DNA of 64,000 nucleotides. Origin: Mytilus edulis. Its lineage: Eukaryota. Shown here piece by piece: positions 25,657-35,602 of this stretch (the stretch's first letter is position 1; every line of letters begins with the position of its first letter). The notes under the pieces are model-generated. The model searched no databases. It was not told where the DNA came from and saw only the letters and a program-made list of their open reading frames with translations. Position numbers and translations under genes: made by a program. The stretch spans positions 89,590,001 to 89,654,000 of the forward strand of contig NC_092347.1 of assembly GCF_963676685.1 (NCBI RefSeq), read 5' to 3'.

Positions 25657-28600
25657 TTATGTTTCATCCTTTAGTGCTGATGTCCATATATCGCTGGATG
25701 GTTTCTCGGGAAGAATAAAGCCATCAGGAATTCTATTGCCTCCTGGTGTTCCCTCCGGTACACTGAATCTGTCCCAATCACATCTACAAATATAAAACAA
25801 AATACATTTCAGTTTAAAAGGGGGGATAAAATAAACTAATTTTGGCAGCAATATATGGACTTCATCAGTTATCTTCCCTTATTCAAAGTGTAAACTATAA
25901 ATAATTTTTAATAAAACATTTTGCACTCTGAATGCTTTTGATAACTTTTGTTCTTAGGTTGCTCTCTGATTGATATATAGCTGACATCTTTAGATATTAT
26001 AGCCATGAGAACAAAATACGTAATGTATCATATTAACATATTGATGTTTGATCTCATCAGACTATACTGATTGACAATCGCACCTTTTCTTCTTTTATAA
26101 AGAAATAATTTAAATATAACCAATTCAATCATTTTTTAATTATGATACTGTATACAGATCTAAAGATAGTTGTCTTAATATATAATCAAGCTGTGATACT
26201 TTATAAAAGTTTCAATCACATTTTTGGCTGTATCTTATGTCATCTTCATCACTAAGAACAAATTCAAAAATTAATGTTCTGATTTCCAAGTTAAAGATGG
26301 AACAAAACCTGAAGGAAATCATCTAGCAATGGGGAAATTCAAAATGATCCTTTTAAGGATGTTCACTTGTCATGTTTTGGGGATTTTGTTCAGATTTTCA
26401 GAACCCTCTAGATCTGGTTTTATCCATTTGAATGTCTTTTTTTTGCCCATTGACCCCATTTTCTTTTTTTTTAATTTTTTACCTGAATACTGTATATAAG
26501 CAATCTGTAAAAGTCTTATACAATTTTAAGTATTATTTGATAGTTTTTGAGATTTAAACTTGTCAATGATAAAGCTACGATAAGTAAGGAGAGAACATTT
26601 TCTCGCCAAAATTTCATTGGCTAATATCTCAAAAACAAGCACATTGACCAATATATTTTTTTGCTCTTTGATTCCTTTATTAATCACCTATCAATGTAAA
26701 GTAGTGTTTTGAAAAGTTACAGTTCTTCTATAAAAGCATGCAAAACAAATTATTGATCAACTTGCTTGCTAGGTTTGCTTGGTTGTTTGCAAACAATAGG
26801 TAGGCGGAGTTTCAGTCTGTTTTTATATTTACTGGGATTTGATTCGACAATAAGAATTGACATGAAATGAATTTAATGTCTATTGTCCAATCATATTCCA
26901 GTAAATAGTAAACACACTGAAATAGACTACATACCTGTTGTTTACAAACATCCAAACAAATATAGCAAGCAAGTTAATCAATTGTTTGTTTTGCATGCTT
27001 TAAAAGAAGAACTGTAATTATTTTTAAACTGAGAAGCGAACTCCCTTAATGGCATGAGTAATCAGAGATACAAATTATTGTTTTGCTAGACAATTGGCTT
27101 CTGCCAACTAATCAACTTTTCTCCATACCTACTTTTTAGAATTTGTTTGAATAGTTCACTTTTAATACAGTATGATTATTTGTATATCTGATGGGAGTCA
27201 TAATAGTACTAACCTGATTTGAAGTAAGGAATCAACAGATACTTGAGCTTGGTCATAATACTGACTAAACATAAACATTGGATCATTCATATCTACTGGC
27301 TCTGAAATAAAATCAAGAGCTTGGTCATAATACTGACAAAATATAAAACATTGGATCATTCATATCTACTGGCTCTGGAAATAAAATCATGAGCTTGGTC
27401 ATAATACTGACAAAACATAAACATTGGATCATTCATATCTACAGGCTCTGGAAATACAAATCATAGGAACACATGCATTTCCAACAGCCAATTGAATATT
27501 GAAAAGAAATTATGAGCAGCAGGTCTATATCTTAAATACTTTTTAAGCCTGTGTTTTCATAAATGGTAATTGATTGAAATCATAATTTCCTTTTCCTGTA
27601 ATTGTTGTATGCAGAATCTCACAATAGTATGTATTTCATTGGTTATTCAAATTCATTGCTTATTTGAAATTTATTATCCATTCAAAATCATGTAGTTACA
27701 TTTAGAATATAATATGAATTTTTCAATATCCCATAAGATCAACCATTTAATCCATGAACTCTGTTGAACAATTTTATCAGTTGACTTTAAAAATGTGTAA
27801 AATTTGTTATTTGGAAACAATTATGTTTTGTATATTATTTAAAAATTTTACCTGATATGTCAATAGTTTATTAAGATCCATCTTTAAAAAATTTACTTCA
27901 ATTTGCAAAATAACAAGATTTTATCAAATGTGAAATATCAAACTATATAACTCTTTATACATGTTATATCTCTGGTAATAAATATATAAACCTACATGAA
28001 GTTCTTGGGATTTTTCTTGTCTGTTTAAATGAAAACATATAAATTATTACAAATGTAAATTTTATTTACCTGATTCACCAAATAATAATTGATCATCTTT
28101 CTTTTGTCTTTTTATTTCAAGACTACGTAAAATCTGTTGTAATTTCTCTCTTTCTTTCTCCTTGTTTTCTTCCTGTTCTATATCCAACATCACCTATTAA
28201 CAATAAATTTGACATAGTGACTCTGATTAAGCTACATGACTACTACTGCCTTTTTAACTTGAAGCTCTGTACTTTTATGTTGAAGGTAATTGTGAACTAT
28301 ATGGATAACTTTAATTTACATACCAATAGAAAGTCCAGCATATATCTACTACTTCAGAATTGATGGTTGAACTTAATAATTATTTTAAGAAAGGCATTTC
28401 CTTGGCTTTATATACATGAGAACTATCAATAGAGAACTTCTTTAAATCCCCAGCATTAGGACTCTGATAAGACAGATGTCTAATTACCAATCATACCACA
28501 TACCCTTGTTTTACATTAGTTTTCTATAAAGATATTTTGGGAATTGAAGTTGGAGATAATTAAGGAATATGTTATAATTAATACTTGATCGAGAATAAAT

Positions 28601-31600
28601 ACTAGTGCAATAATATTTCTCCTATATTGCCACAAGATGGATGAATGAAATTTCAAGATGAATGATCTCATTAATTATAAACTATTTTCCTTTTAATACA
28701 CTATTCCCAAATATTTAATGGATTTGTCACCAAGTCCATTCTCATATATCATACATACCAAGTGGAAAGATGAACATTATTTAAGTCACCTCATATTTAT
28801 ACCAATATGACTTTATCAATTGTTTTTGTTGCTTTGAAATATAATGTAAGATGAATTAAAGGCAATAAGATTAATGTCAACTCCATGAGATGATTTAACT
28901 GATAGGGACATTACTAACCTGCAGTGCTTTATTTTCAGCAGTATAAACTTTCTTTTGTGTTTTCACAACATCCAGACAATCTTGAACTTTATCCTCAAAA
29001 TCTGCATCACTCTCTGGTTTGGTGTTTACTCCTTAAATGGTCAAATATTTAGTTTAAATCAAAAGAAGAGAAACTTACACTTAATTATACTTTATATATA
29101 AAACATTCCCATCCTGCTATGAACAAAATCTTATCAGAGAAAATATACCCATCCCATTATGAGTGTGGAAAAATTTTGGTGTAATTTAAACTTTCAAAAT
29201 CATACAGCCATTATTACAGAAATAAAAAAAATATTCGTTTAGTAGGTCTCGGATATTTCCAATAAGGTATTTTTTTAATGAGTGTTAAAACTATGAGTCA
29301 CTGTAGCTCCCTTTTTTCACCTGATAAGATCTTGAAGAGAATCTTTGTATCAATATAAGATCAATTATTCACAGAGTTTGGTCACTCATAAATAACCTGT
29401 TTAATTAAAAAATCCTGTTTTATTTTAATTTTATATAAGATCATACAGGTATTATTTCTACTAAGTAAGGAGTAAAGAGAAGCATTTTTGTAACAAACCT
29501 TGCTGTAATAATCTATCTTTCCTCAATTTTCTGAGTTTAGTCAGATTTTTCAGTAAATCTGTGGCTCTTGTAATATCTTGTGTTTTCTTTCTGATTTCAC
29601 CCAGAACTTTGTCTGCAATCTGCTTCAACTCTTTTTGCTGTATAATACACCAAAACGGAAATATATGAATAGGGCTTCTCAACTCATGTAAATAATAACT
29701 ACATAAAACAGGCATTCTGCTATCGGTATAAAATCAAGGTAATACATAAATTTTAATGGGTTAAAAAAATTATTTTCTAGACCAAGCTTCAACGGGAATG
29801 CACAAAGTTCTTTCTTCAATGTTCTTAAAAGTTTTCAGTCGATATAAGCATATAAAATGTATTAATTATCTTGGTTATTTTAACATGTTTAATACATTTT
29901 GTCATCCATAAAAAATGAACAGATCTAATTTTTATGTTGGAAAAATTATCATGAAATTCTTTCTTTGTAAAGCTTTAACGTTTTTTTCACATCACAGCCC
30001 ATAGATACATTAACAAACACTACCTGTCTTTTGTTACCGTATTTATCATGGACTTTCTTTAACCTCCCATCTATTTCCTTGTGTAATTGTTCTCTCTGTT
30101 CTAATTCTCTCTGTCTGGATAAATATTTCTCTTCTCTTTGTTTCTTAATCCTCTCCTAAAATGAAAGTTCATTCAATTATAAGCAAACAAAAATTCTAGT
30201 GAGAAAAATAAAATGTTGGTCATTTTGCTTTTCTTGATGTGTTGTTGTTCATGGAGAATTACCCAAAACATATTTCAAATTTGAGATCAATATTAGCTGT
30301 TTGTTAGAATAAATTTGTACATGCATATGGTATTTTACTAAAATCTTTCAAAATAAATTAATGTTTATAACAATTAATATTCTGTTTATCTTGGTATGCA
30401 TCTATCCTTTAAGGTTGTTTTGTATTTGTTAGCTGTTGGTTTTGTTTTTTTAATTAATTTTGTAATATCTGCCAGAAGATATGATAGTCCAGTTATCAAT
30501 ATATATTTGTTCCACGTAACAGAAGTTTCCTACATACTTTTTTGTATAAACAATGCAATAAAATTTGTTCCTTTGCCCTTTATTCAGTAAGAAACAAATA
30601 CTGTAATATTTGTTCCAGTGGCAATAATATTACAGAATATTTTTTTGACTTTCATTATGACAGAACTTCTATTTCATGTCGAAGGTGCTGGTGGTGAGAT
30701 TCAGTGTGATTTATAGTGTTATCCTGTCTTAAATTATTTGTAAAAAACAAACTACACCAAACTAAGAAAATTGAACTACAAAATTGAATTTTAACTGGCT
30801 TGAAATATCTTTTTTCAATACCTCTGATTATTAGTATCTCCATAATCAGAAATGTTTTGTCATTTACAAATTTAAATTTAATTGATGGAATTCTAATAAT
30901 TTTAATCTAGCGATATATATATATTTAGTGTATTGTAACCCATGGACAGACCTAAACTTAAGTGACATAGTTTTAGTGTTAAGGTATTCAAAATCTTTAC
31001 TCTGTAATGTAATGTAAAATTGTGATATGTTTGTTGTACAACTTCATATCTGTTCATGATATCACCAGTTTCTAGACTCTTTGAATATAATCATATCTAT
31101 GTGTTCCTGTACTGTGTCAATTTTTTTCTTTCAAAATTTAGACTTTTAGAATGGTGACATCATGTTATCCAAGAAAAAAAAAGTTCAAAGAAATACTTTA
31201 ACTAAACTATGAAAAACATCCAAATAAAAACTATGATAAAACAAGGGTCATGGACGTCTGAACTGATATCAATTCAACTGCAAACAAAGTAATTTGCAGT
31301 TAAAAGATTTGTTGAATCAGATCATAGAATGAATGAAATGTCAACAGTAATTGAAGCTGAAAGGATATAATACAGTAATGCAAAAGGATATTTGTATAAA
31401 CAGGCTAATAGTATTCTTTTTGTCCAGCTAGAATGTTCACATACTGAAAATAATACAAAAAATAAAGTTATTTCCAAATTTCATTTAATTTTTTTATATG
31501 ATGTTGTGTTTATAGTATTCATCTAATTATTTTATATTCCATAATCATTTTACAAACAATACACAAGGCGTTAGAACTTTTTACCATTCATTATCCCAAC

Positions 31601-34600
31601 GTTATCAAATTAACCAATGTTTGGATGAACAAAATTACTGGACCCGACTTCATTTGTTTGTCAACTCTTCTTGTACAAACACCGCTTATTCATACATCTA
31701 ACTTTAGTTTTTTATGTACAAATGTATAAAGTAATTTTTCTTTAAGCATTTAATGAAAACTATCTTCATACATGTTATATGTGTCAGTACAGTACAGTTA
31801 ATACAGCTAAAACATTGCCCTTTTCAGGTTTTCTTAAAATGTTTTGAATGAATTTACTTTGCCAACCCTAGACACATGATCTCATCTACTTATTCAAGAT
31901 AAAAACAAATTAATAACAAATGAATGTGTTTCTACTTATACACGCACTGTACATGTATTATAATTTAAACCTGAAACTAACCTTCTTTTTGATGAACCTT
32001 ATAACTGATACTTTTGAAATAAATTGAAAATCATAACTTCATAAGGGAACTAAATAAACTGGGATAATTTGATTCCAAAAGGATATGAAGGATCAAAGCT
32101 CAAAACCATATCATCTATCAGCTACAAAATTTCTGGCAAAGACAATGATCAAATTATATTACATGAATTGTAATACAAAGGGAGGAGGATTCTTATGGTT
32201 GAGGAGTCTTAAATAGAAGGTTTGGGTTAATGGTACATGAATAACTAAAGCCTTTTATTATTTTCATAACCATTGGATATTTCAGGAAAATTCTGAGCTG
32301 TTTAAAGTTTTGCACAACTTTGACACAACAAATTAATAGCTTTCAACAAACCCTTTTTTGCATCCTCTTCTTAACTTTCATTCTTAAATCCAGAACATCT
32401 ACTGTGGACAAATATTTCCTTATGGCATCCATTTCATCCTGTACAAATATAGACATTTCGAAATTATTTTCAAAAATAAAATAAAGATATTATTGGTATT
32501 CAAATGAAGAAATTTTAATGAATCATTTCAATCATGTCAATATGTATGTAATGTATGTGATTAGATCCATACACATGTACATTGTAGGTACAAATGTATT
32601 GGTACTAAAAACAATTGTTACATCATTCAGCAGTATACATTATATATATGTAAATTTATTTAAATGAATTCCATCTTTTTCAAGTTTCAATTATTTGCAC
32701 AAAGCATTAAAAAATCAGCAATCAAACAATTATCTATACATTCTATATGCATGATACAGATGTATGTTTAACATACAAATGTACATGTACACATCCCATA
32801 CAAAAAAAATCCATAACAACTAACAACATGGAACATCTGGATTCCTGTATAGTTTAAATATTTCTCTTCCATGATTCTTTATAGTTCTTTCATACCTTCA
32901 ATTTATTAGTTGTTCTCATTTCTTCCTCAATCTGATGTTGATCACATGATTTTAAAATCTTGATCTGTTTTTGAAGGGATGCCATCAGAAACATCATTCT
33001 TTTTGTTTTTTCTTGGACATCATATAGCTGAAACATATTATGAAAATTGAAAAAGATGTGTATAAATAAAGCAATCTTGCATTAAACCCTACAAAATTTC
33101 AACTGAAATATATACTTTTTGCATAAAGAATTAAAAGTTTTTCCAACATGCACATTTAAATGCTTTGCATACAATGTTTGTACATTGTAAAGACAAAATG
33201 TTTGAGACTTTACTTTGTAACAACTACTGCTTCCCTTAGTTGGTATCTCAAGGAAAACAGACTTGCTGTAACCCTAGCCTGGTCCCTTACATACATTTGT
33301 ATAACCAACATGACCAATCAACAAGTGTACACATGTATATCTTAACACCTGTAGATGGTTTAATCATGTCCAGTTTTATTTACATTAACTTAACAATTTT
33401 TTAGGGGAAAAGATCCTTAGCTTTGACTTGTTTGATGGTCTCAACCTGTGTGATATATGCAATAGTCCAACAAAAAGGTAAATTAATGTCTGTTAAGAGT
33501 TAAAACTTTACTTGCAACTTTGAAACTTACACATATAATACGTTTTGGCCTGACCCATAGAGTCTTGTACTTTGAACAAAATTGAGGTTGCTGTCTAATT
33601 GATGTGTACCCTACATTATGTAGCTACAAGTACACGAGACATGAAGTACAATGTCATGAATGAAACATTTATCACATCACAATACAGTTCAATAATTCAA
33701 TCGATTGAATCTTGTTTGTCTATCATTGGAATGTTGCAATACTTATTTTAGAATTGTACTTCAGCGTATTTTCACTAGATCATTTATGACACTGCTCATC
33801 TATATATATTGATATATAGATTGAGTATTGTTAGCCGGTAAACAGACAGAGAGTCACAAGACATGAAGTCACAAATTTGATAGGTCAAAAAGTCACAGGA
33901 CAAAAAGTCACATATAATTCTTCAACAATTGTTTGAATATACATGTATAAGAGAAAGATCCAGAAATATTTTCTTTTTACTACATACATATGTATATTAA
34001 TTTTTCAGATAAGGAAATTTGTCACAGGTTTTGATAAATGAAAATTCATCACATTTTAATCATGCAAAGAATATATTTCTTAGCACCATGAAGACATTTG
34101 TGTACCAAGCAACTTTGACATTTTGTTTTAATAACAATTATTTGATCATTATTGATATTTATTGAAAACATTTTAATTACAAAATTAAAGTTGCCTTTTA
34201 TATCATTGTATATAATAGTTCAAGAAAAAACAAAAATATTCGTTTTTAAATTTGTGTTTTCTTGTTCAAAGAAATATACATGTAGTCTCAAAACTGAATT
34301 GTGACTTTTTGTCCTGTGATTTTCTGTCCTACATTTTTGCTAGCCAATTCTTACATTAACTGGTGTTTTGACACATTCTTTTTTCTGGACCTTCCAATCA
34401 TCAGATTGTATTCCTTTTCTATCAAGCCATGATTTTATCCACTCTGTATCTTTTTCTTTCCCTGGCAGTACAGTTGCATGTTCTGTCTGAATTAATTCTT
34501 TTTTAAGTTGAAACGGCTGCTGGTGGTGCTGCTGAATTTGCTGATTCATAACTGGCTTGAGTGGAGGAGGATGAGAATTTGGAGGAAACGGATTTGAACC

Positions 34601-35602
34601 TGCGTAGGGTTTTGGTTGAAAATTAGGTGGTGGAAATGGATTAGGAAATCTGTTCATTGGTGGTGGCATTCCAAGCTGATTATTTCTGAATTGCATATCA
34701 TTTTGCAAAAATGAATTGGAAGGAGGTGGACAATTTGGGATCATCATTTGTACAGGTTGAACTGATTCAGGAACACTAACATGACTAAGTCCTTGGTAGT
34801 CCAATGGTTTTGTAAATTGGTGAATTTGAGGATTTGTATGATCTTGTTGTCTATTGTCAAACGGTTTTTCAGTTTGTGCGAAACTCAAAGAACCCAGCAA
34901 TTCAGAACTTTGTTGAGGTGATATTATGCTTGACCTTTGCACAAGTGTGGTGCTTTCATCCTGATCAGGAATAACATCAAGACCTGGAATTTGCATATTC
35001 TGTGAATTGAAAGTTGATTTTGATTTTTGTATTTCTTCTTGTGCAACTTTTGTAAAAAAGTTTCCACTACCTTTACTGTCAAGAATTTCATTCTTCTGAT
35101 CATTCATTGACCAGTTAAAAGGTTTTTGATCATTCATCGACATGTTGATAAGTGGAGCCTGGTGATAGCCATCGATTGATGTTTGAGGTGTAATTCTCGA
35201 GTCAGAACTGTATTTTGCCATGCCAGTCCTATTGCGATTTGGATCTCTCATAGACATAGAAGTGTTTAGCTCCCAGCTTGAAGGTTGTGATTGGTCTTGT
35301 TGGCTGCCTTGTGTTTGCCCTTGGTTGTATATTGGAAATGAAGAAGGCCCTTGTGGTCTACTACTTTGAACATTGCGATTATCAACTCTTTCTTCAAATG
35401 AGCGTTGATTTTGCCCGTGTTCATTATTTGGAAAATTGGACGTGATAGTGTTTGTGTTTTGAAACCTTCTTGGTTGGTTATTTCTTGGGGTGTACTGTCC
35501 CGGTGTTCGTGGAGGAAAATTGTGTCTCTGGTTTTGGCCTCGTGTGACAAATCGAGGATTTGCAGGCCGAAAGTTCTTTCTGCTGTTATTTCGACTGTAC
35601 AT
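25657..35602 (-). CDS. PDCD7: programmed cell death protein 7 / U11 snRNP 59K; exons 35602-34355, 33027-32896, 32438-32352, 30155-30024, 29637-29499, 29031-28919, 28193-28070, 27301-27214, 25783-25657 (729 aa)
   Basis: All introns GT-AG, phases consistent, total 2190 nt. Motifs ELKQIADKVLGEIRKK..LTKLRKLRK, ENKALQVMLDIEQEE, FSQYYDQAQVSVDSLLQIRCDWDRF and IPDGFILPEKPSSDIWTSAL match the recalled PDCD7 C-terminal domain; Pro-rich N-terminal region. Confidence 0.92.
26357..27045. mobile_element. Kolobok-like element (same family as 16150-16482) carrying a nested MITE
   Basis: TTAA flanks; TIR GGATGTTCACT / AGCGAACTCCC; colinear with the 16150 copy except for the insert. Confidence 0.78.
26720..27014. 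mobile_element. fold-back Tc1/mariner-type MITE
   Basis: TA TSD; long imperfect TIRs CAGTTCTTCTATAAAAGCATGCAAAACAAA / TTTGTTTTGCATGCTTTAAAAGAAGAACTG; empty site visible in the 16150 copy. Confidence 0.85.
27245..27464 (-). repeat. three tandem 73-bp copies of the PDCD7 exon 8 acceptor plus exon 5' portion
   Basis: CAG acceptors at 27304-27302, 27377-27375 and 27450-27448, each followed by AGCC(A/T)GTAGATATGAATGATCCAATG. Confidence 0.92.
31360..31470 (-). promoter_or_regulatory. USSE-like element: tandem U12-type 5' splice-site motifs downstream of a cryptic U2-type 3' splice site (PDCD7 intron 3)
   Basis: Sense-strand ATATCCTTT at 31391-31383 and 31368-31360; acceptor TAACTTTATTTTTTGTATTATTTTCAG ends at 31444, 52 nt upstream; in-frame TAG after 12 codons. 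Confidence 0.65.
31982..32132 (-). other. candidate 151-nt poison exon containing a second U11-binding module
   Basis: Acceptor TGTCTTTGCCAG ends at 32133; in-frame TGA at codon 5; TGATCCTTC-ATATCCTTT at 32095-32078; donor AAG|GTTAGT at 31982/31981. Confidence 0.5.
33837..34336. mobile_element. MITE with subterminal GGACAAAAAGTCACA repeats (possibly Mutator-like)
   Basis: Inverted subterminal arrays at 33845-33912 and 34300-34333; possible 9-bp TSD TTGTTAGCC / TTGCTAGCC. Confidence 0.6.

What the first reader, a model, noticed from the sequence alone, without database searches (positions are those of the whole stretch)
31982..32135. Second U11-binding module inside a complete candidate poison exon in the same PDCD7 intron
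Seen: acceptor TGTCTTTGCCAG (32133) followed by an in-frame TGA at codon 5. A degenerate site (TGATCCTTC) directly abuts a perfect ATATCCTTT, 37-46 nt downstream of the AG. A U2 donor AAG|GTTAGT at 31982 closes a 151-nt frameshifting exon. Inference: two independent USSE-like modules in one intron, possibly redundant or graded, or spliced to each other (31982 to 31443). It could also show turnover of the element.
Basis: partly seen in the sequence, partly recalled or inferred. Interest (0 to 1): 0.7.

Follow-up and report, generated by a model that had tools for sequence, protein, structure and literature searches.

The report
Second U11 decoy in mussel PDCD7
One intron of a mussel gene for a minor-spliceosome protein holds two clusters of decoy splice signals, and transcript data show splicing at the downstream cluster but not at this upstream one, which is likely a weak or decaying spare copy of a predicted self-limiting switch rather than a working poison exon.

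Summary
The layout of acceptor, perfect U12-type site and second core is rare by chance (about 0.001-0.003 per gene, post hoc). Use is not shown: none of the three proposed junctions appears in 4 of 4 transcript contig sets, while the downstream module's acceptor (31443) is spliced to exon 3 in 1 of 4 and intron 3, unlike intron 2, is covered end to end in all four. In one run with two haplotypes the downstream module is identical over 120 nt, whereas this module shares no 31-mer, and the diverged haplotype has lost at least one of the proposed exon's splice sites, most likely the donor. Only one of its two U11 sites fits the consensus. Best reading: the working switch is the downstream module; this one is a weak or decaying accessory. 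Contigs drop rare decay-prone isoforms, so low use is not excluded. Six paper searches found no such enhancer in PDCD7. The scan noted a similar cluster in octopus PDCD7 before (unchecked).

The parts
25657..35602 (-). PDCD7 (U11-59K) coding span, nine exons
   Evidence: Pfam PF16021; model equals P0033; human PDCD7 chain 8r7n_D, E 1e-42
32352..32438 (-). Exon 3, 87 nt, phase 0, ends at a non-consensus donor AGG|GTTTGT
   Evidence: joints to exon 2 and exon 4 in 4 of 4 contig sets
30156..32351 (-). Intron 3, 2196 nt, holds all three perfect ATATCCTTT sites of the gene's sense strand; covered by RNA contigs along its length
32133..32144 (-). Module 2 candidate U2 acceptor TGTCTTTGCCAG; no junction seen
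31982..32132 (-). Module 2 candidate 151-nt exon (the finding); inclusion not seen
32118..32120 (-). In-frame TGA, codon 5 after the module 2 acceptor
32087..32095 (-). Degenerate U12-type site TGATCCTTC, 6 of 9 letters, 5 bp predicted with this genome's U11 5' end (-4.0 kcal/mol)
32078..32086 (-). Perfect U12-type 5' site ATATCCTTT, 7 bp predicted with U11 (-6.2 kcal/mol)
31976..31981 (-). Candidate U2 donor GTTAGT, best donor-like site of the intron; lies in a 97-nt stretch skipped by a diverged haplotype
31444..31462 (-). Module 1 pyrimidine tract and AG; spliced to exon 3 in run X2
   Evidence: joint 31443/32352, GT..AG
31405..31407 (-). In-frame TAG, codon 13 after the module 1 acceptor
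31383..31391 (-). Module 1 first perfect site ATATCCTTT
   Evidence: inside the 120 nt shared by both haplotypes of X4
31360..31368 (-). Module 1 second perfect site ATATCCTTT; contig ends in X4 imply a variant at its third letter in one haplotype
   Evidence: inferred from contig geometry
30024..30155 (-). Exon 4, the productive acceptor

Best explanation
Intron 3 of mussel PDCD7 carries two U11-site clusters, of which the downstream one (acceptor 31443) is spliced in RNA and likely is the working feedback switch, while the upstream one described here likely is a weak or decaying accessory copy that is not used as a separate 151-nt poison exon. Shown: both clusters in the DNA, the exon 3 to 31443 junction, cover of intron 3 by RNA contigs, early stops after either acceptor. 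Inferred: U11 snRNP bound to the sites would bridge to U2AF on the acceptor upstream, divert exon 3 away from exon 4, and give a message with a premature stop that would be degraded or kept in the nucleus, so that abundant U11 snRNP would lower its own 59K subunit. Module 2 has the same layout, has only one full site, and likely lost this job to module 1 (turnover) or adds little to it; its donor likely is incidental.
For: Module 1 junction in X2 and none at 32132 or 31982 in X1, X2, X4, X8. Contigs of X2 (31819-32306), X4 (31808-32380) and X8 (31809-32149) run through module 2 unbroken. In X4 two haplotypes collapse into one identical 120-nt contig over module 1 (31367-31486; chance 0.02 or less at the 3-13% divergence seen elsewhere) but stay on separate contigs through module 2, so they share no 31-mer there (inferred from contig geometry). 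The diverged haplotype aligns only at 31886-31915, 32013 to about 32097 and 32212-32380, leaving 44 letters for two gaps that each need 37 to keep a splice site in register. Contigs over module 2 differ from the window by 2.9% (X2) and 4.4% (X8), against 1.9% and 2.0% for the long downstream contigs. The first site lacks the consensus letters 1, 2 and 9. Pure chance is disfavoured.
Against: Absence in contigs is weak: they drop rare variants, and even the module 1 junction shows in only 1 of 4 sets; raw reads gave 16 reads in the best run and none on either module. X1 differs from the window at 1 of 217 letters over 31913-32129. The perfect site pairs with U11 as well as the best module 1 site. 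The two modules show no homology between AG and site (p 0.29-0.40), so module 2 is not a recent duplicate of module 1 and the relic history is unproven. The variant table was cut at 31185, so I could not see whether differences hit the sites themselves. Module 1's second site seems to vary in one haplotype too.
Confidence: 0.55

Rival explanations
1. Module 2 is a working second tier: U11 bound at 32086 activates the acceptor at 32132, the rest of the intron stays in as for module 1, and the stop at codon 5 sends the message to decay; two acceptors of unequal strength would grade the response.
For: Rare layout; site-to-AG spacing 46 nt against 52 nt in module 1; 7-bp pairing with U11; the diverged haplotype still aligns over the sites and could keep the AG in its 44 unaligned letters; the upstream part of the intron is covered in RNA.
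Against: No junction at 32132 in 4 of 4 contig sets; no shared 31-mer between haplotypes; 32150-32211 upstream of the tract is unaligned or uncovered in X8 and in the diverged X4 haplotype; only one full site.
Confidence: 0.25
2. One reading: a complete 151-nt poison cassette (32132-31982) that splices on to 31443 or to exon 4.
For: AAG|GTTAGT is the only donor-like site of the intron with one mismatch to the consensus and the same hexamer is used at two real donors of this gene; chance of such a donor within 250 nt is 0.055.
Against: 0 of 3 proposed junctions in 4 of 4 contig sets; a 97-nt skip without GT-AG ends (31915/32013) spans the donor in the deeper X4 haplotype.
Confidence: 0.1
3. Module 2 is a chance meeting of motifs in T-rich intron DNA and never did anything.
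For: A single perfect site is expected 0.088 times per intron of this size; the stop and frameshift are near-automatic; 965 loose pairs exist genome-wide; no use and no special conservation seen.
Against: Joint chance about 0.001-0.003 per gene; 0 of 9 background perfect sites had a second core or a donor, 1 of 9 an acceptor.
Confidence: 0.08
4. The ATATCCTTT sites are true donors of an AT-AC minor intron nested in intron 3, ending after the branch-like TACCTTAAC at 30986-30978.
For: The motif has one mismatch to the U12 branch consensus (consensus recalled) and an AC ends 8 nt after it.
Against: A variant at 30982 breaks the core in X1 and X2; contigs of X2, X4 and X8 cross the place unbroken; no AT-AC joint is listed.
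Confidence: 0.02

Closest known systems
USSE of SNRNP48 (U11-48K) (Verbeeren 2010, Turunen 2013, Niemela 2015, none held; described in PMC5473595, PMC8329584, PMC3584512)
   Same: U12-type 5' site motifs in non-coding sequence of a U11 snRNP protein gene, downstream of a U2-type acceptor whose use brings in a premature stop.
   Different: Gene is PDCD7; module 2 has one full and one degenerate site with no spacer; the sites lie inside the proposed exon with the donor about 100 nt downstream; the stretch from acceptor to sites is not conserved between haplotypes; use is not shown; two modules share one intron.
USSE of RNPC3 (U11/U12-65K) 3' UTR (PMC5473595)
   Same: An alternative U2 acceptor activated by downstream U11 sites gives an extended, unproductive isoform with no new donor, which is how module 1 appears to behave here.
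   Different: There it lies in the 3' UTR and leads to nuclear retention; here it lies in a coding intron with an early stop. RNPC3 of this genome was not located.
U11-59K as exon-bridging factor (bioRxiv 10.1101/2020.05.18.101246)
   Same: PDCD7 co-precipitates U2AF1, U2AF2 and SF1, the contact that a USSE-like switch would need.
   Different: That work concerns the protein's role around minor introns and reports no regulatory element in the PDCD7 gene in the passages read.

Membership tests
[quoted passage not shown] | Tandem repeat of U12-type 5' splice sites | tested here: not met
   Module 2 has one 9 of 9 and one 6 of 9 site, abutting. Module 1 has two 9 of 9 sites in the window. How much degeneracy published USSEs tolerate could not be read.
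[quoted passage not shown] | Lies in non-coding sequence of a gene for a U11/U12 snRNP protein, in a genome with U11 | tested here: met
   PDCD7 intron 3; five U11 snRNA matches over the Rfam cut-off. The gene is not one of the two published hosts.
[quoted passage not shown] | An upstream U2-type acceptor is used | tested here: inconclusive
   Module 2: 0 of 4 contig sets, raw reads too shallow. Module 1: 1 of 4.
[quoted passage not shown] | The sites are not used as donors | tested here: inconclusive
   No joint starts at any of the sites and the one branch-like motif is broken in 2 of 4 runs; contigs show presence, not absence.
[quoted passage not shown] | Whole stretch from acceptor to sites, and its length, conserved (PMC8329584) | tested here: not met
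   One comparison only: X4 haplotypes share no 31-mer over module 2 and are identical over 120 nt of module 1. No distant genome could be fetched.
[quoted passage not shown] | Product is unproductive (premature stop and decay, or nuclear retention) | tested here: inconclusive
   Stop at codon 5, 136 nt before the proposed exon end; decay itself not tested.
[quoted passage not shown] | Acceptor use depends on U11 binding | not testable with these tools
   Needs mutation or antisense blocking; only pairing energies were computed.

The most novel reading that the evidence does not exclude
In molluscs the U11 feedback switch has moved from SNRNP48 to PDCD7, and mussels carry it twice in one intron as a strong and a weak U11-activated acceptor that together give a graded response, caught while the weaker module is turning over.
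Probability: 0.3. Interest if true: 0.7.

Novelty: new variant of a known kind. Interest (0 to 1): 0.42.

Why it matters
A 2021 review (PMC8329584, passages read) names SNRNP48 and RNPC3 as the only genes with this major-minor spliceosome feedback. A spliced USSE-like acceptor in PDCD7, in a genome whose SNRNP48 has no perfect U12-type site, would show that the circuit can change host gene. That weight rests mostly on module 1. Module 2 matters as a natural experiment: if working, it would be a two-tier U11 sensor and would show that one full site can suffice; if decaying, it is a snapshot of how such an element is replaced. Both are testable with one minigene and with mussel populations that differ at the site.

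Tried and rejected
No RNA holder on record was listed for the stretch; the four contig sets are taken as RNA because they hold spliced joints. Raw reads of 4 runs gave 16, 0, 4 and 0 reads: no test. Of 24 listed runs 8 were laid. Two metagenome scans for PDCD7 loci of other bivalves found nothing, although short exon 2 fragments of a more distant relative are on record from JGI. No second copy of the intron stretch in the own assembly. Truncated proteins ending in either poison frame were not among 23 cluster members listed (sequences read for 7 of them) or 5 short hits. Duplication of module 1 as the origin of module 2: not significant (only the upstream tracts reached p 0.03, one of three comparisons, expected for two pyrimidine tracts). 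Nested AT-AC intron: rejected. RNPC3 was not located with a recalled peptide motif, so its USSE status here is open. A strict genome-wide acceptor-plus-pair pattern gave 13 matches against 14 for its control and caught neither module: uninformative. Contig depths were used only to work out aligned spans, not expression.

Full report
Gene and organism. The finding lies on the minus strand in intron 3 (32351-30156, 2196 nt) of PDCD7. Four of 8 exon frames scanned match Pfam PF16021, two above the curated cut-off. Exon 5 is 100% identical to Mytilus edulis and M. galloprovincialis proteins, a nine-exon model from the window translates exactly to the 729-aa M. edulis protein P0033, and its only PDB relative is human PDCD7. 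The genome has U11 snRNA, five matches over the Rfam cut-off, beginning AAAAAGGGC.

Observation. All details hold: acceptor ending at 32133, K-F-C-S-stop, TGATCCTTC abutting ATATCCTTT, donor AAG|GTTAGT after 31982, 151 nt. The sense strand of the 10-kb gene has three perfect ATATCCTTT sites, all in this intron: 32086 (module 2) and 31391, 31368 (module 1, behind the acceptor at 31444). The degenerate site matches 6 of 9 letters and keeps the part that pairs with U11 (5 bp, -4.0 kcal/mol, against 7 bp and -6.2 for the perfect site). It lacks letters 1 and 2, which from my own knowledge are read by U11-48K.

Chance. In 223,608 strand-bases of background a perfect site occurs 9 times (0.088 per intron of this size); a second core within 30 nt has chance 0.02-0.07, an acceptor this good 0.10, a donor this good 0.055; 512 of 542 such acceptors are followed by a stop within 150 nt. 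Genome-wide, ATCCTT followed within 30 nt by a perfect site occurs 965 times (control 617), 0.0008 per intron; perfect pairs 434 times (control 132), many in tandem arrays. Without the donor the joint figure is 0.001-0.003 per gene. It is post hoc and assumes independence, but pure chance is unlikely.

RNA. Raw reads were too few: 16 reads in X24, 3 of them on exon 3 to exon 4, none on either module; 0, 4 and 0 reads in the others. Contigs of four runs (three studies, three organism labels) show exon 2 to 3 and exon 3 to 4 joints in 4 of 4. X2 also joins exon 3 to 31443 with GT..AG ends (contig depth 16.8 against 38.6 for the coding joint; not an expression level). All 21 bins inside intron 3 have cover in 4 of 4 runs, while the 4 bins inside intron 2 have none in three runs and slight cover in 2 of 4 bins in X8, which argues against DNA carry-over and for selective retention or slow removal of intron 3. 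The contigs reach 29 letters into exons 3 and 4, short of the tool's 31-letter rule for bridging, so a separate intronic transcript is not formally excluded. Contigs drop rare variants: absence of the module 2 junction is weak evidence.

Conservation. The variant table was cut at 31185, so module 2 can be read only from contig geometry, which is inference. X4 holds a haplotype close to the window and a deeper one that differs by 3% to 13%. They merge into one contig with 0 differences over 31367-31486, which covers module 1's tract, AG, spacer and first site (chance 0.02 or less). The window-like contig then runs unbroken from 31457 to 32380, so the two share no 31-mer across module 2. The deeper haplotype aligns at 31886-31915, 32013 to about 32097 and 32212-32380 (bin arithmetic); its joint 31915/32013 skips 97 nt without GT-AG ends and spans the donor. 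Only 44 letters remain for two gaps that each need 37 to keep a splice site in register, so at least one site is lost or displaced, most simply the donor. The U11 sites lie inside the aligned piece; whether they are intact cannot be seen. X8 aligns over the whole proposed exon with 15 differences in 341 and lacks cover at 32150-32211. X2 has 14 differences in 490; X1 has 1 in 217. Against my reading: contig ends in X4 place a variant at 31366, the third letter of module 1's second site, so module 1 is not invariant either. The modules are not detectably homologous (p 0.29-0.40).

Mechanism. Published USSEs are tandem U12-type 5' sites that are not used as donors but recruit U11 and activate an upstream U2-type acceptor, giving a poison exon and decay in SNRNP48 or a retained long 3' UTR in RNPC3 (PMC5473595, introduction read whole plus passages; PMC3584512, passages). 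The stretch from acceptor to element and its length are conserved (PMC8329584, passages). PDCD7 protein co-precipitates U2AF and SF1 (bioRxiv 10.1101/2020.05.18.101246, passages). Module 1 fits this: used acceptor, stop at codon 13, continuous cover down to exon 4, invariant spacer. U11 dependence and decay are inferred. Module 2 has the layout but one full site, no seen junction and no conserved spacer. I put 0.55 on a weak or decaying accessory, 0.25 on a working second acceptor, 0.10 on the full cassette, 0.08 on chance and 0.02 on a nested AT-AC intron (branch-like motif at 30986 broken at 30982 in X1 and X2).

Context. The locus with a zf-U11-48K match at G000:C3:8182420, which I take to be SNRNP48 from recalled downstream peptides, has no perfect U12-type site and no tandem pair in 8180500-8189500. 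RNPC3 was not located. An unchecked note of this scan (e1-8666610) describes a similar cluster in octopus PDCD7, and three others describe the usual SNRNP48 element in a ray, a sea urchin and an annelid; these are leads, not support.

Novelty. Six paper searches (listings only, apart from the four papers named) found no USSE in PDCD7. Verbeeren 2010 was not looked up; Turunen 2013 and Niemela 2015 are not held. Their figures and supplements may list mollusc elements. Module 2 fails two defining features as tested and is not filed as a USSE; it is built like one. The intron as a whole is a new variant of a known feedback circuit; this finding is its weaker, unproven half. Interest 0.42.

Noticed in passing
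window 31360-31486 (minus): Module 1: acceptor at 31444 with two perfect ATATCCTTT sites 52 and 75 nt downstream; spliced to exon 3 in run X2; the strongest feature of the intron.
   Followed up: partly
window 30156-32351 (minus): Intron 3 is covered end to end by RNA contigs in 4 of 4 runs while intron 2 is not; exon 3 has a non-consensus donor. Looks like a retained or slowly spliced intron.
   Followed up: partly
window 27214-27460 (minus): The acceptor and first half of exon 8 are present in three 73-nt tandem copies (acceptors before 27447, 27374, 27301); annotated isoforms P0034 and P0001 end early in such copies, so the repeat gives truncated PDCD7 forms.
   Followed up: partly
window 30970-30986 (minus): U12 branch-like TACCTTAAC with an AC 8 nt on; the core is broken by a variant at 30982 in two runs.
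   Followed up: yes
window 30577-30645: Short dispersed repeat inside intron 3 that draws many unrelated contigs.
   Followed up: no
window 32154-32178 (minus): Predicted 10-bp hairpin just upstream of the module 2 tract, over a possible branch region; this stretch is unaligned or uncovered in X8 and in the diverged X4 haplotype.
   Followed up: no
G000:C3:8181400-8187300 (L041): Likely SNRNP48 gene without any perfect U12-type 5' site, the usual host of the element.
   Followed up: partly
G000:C2:74314658-74317044 (L035): Long tandem array of a 26-nt unit that contains ATATCCTTT and inflates genome-wide pair counts.
   Followed up: no
G000:C13:27078112-27098071 and 27671518: Five U11 snRNA matches, four within 20 kb.
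   Followed up: no
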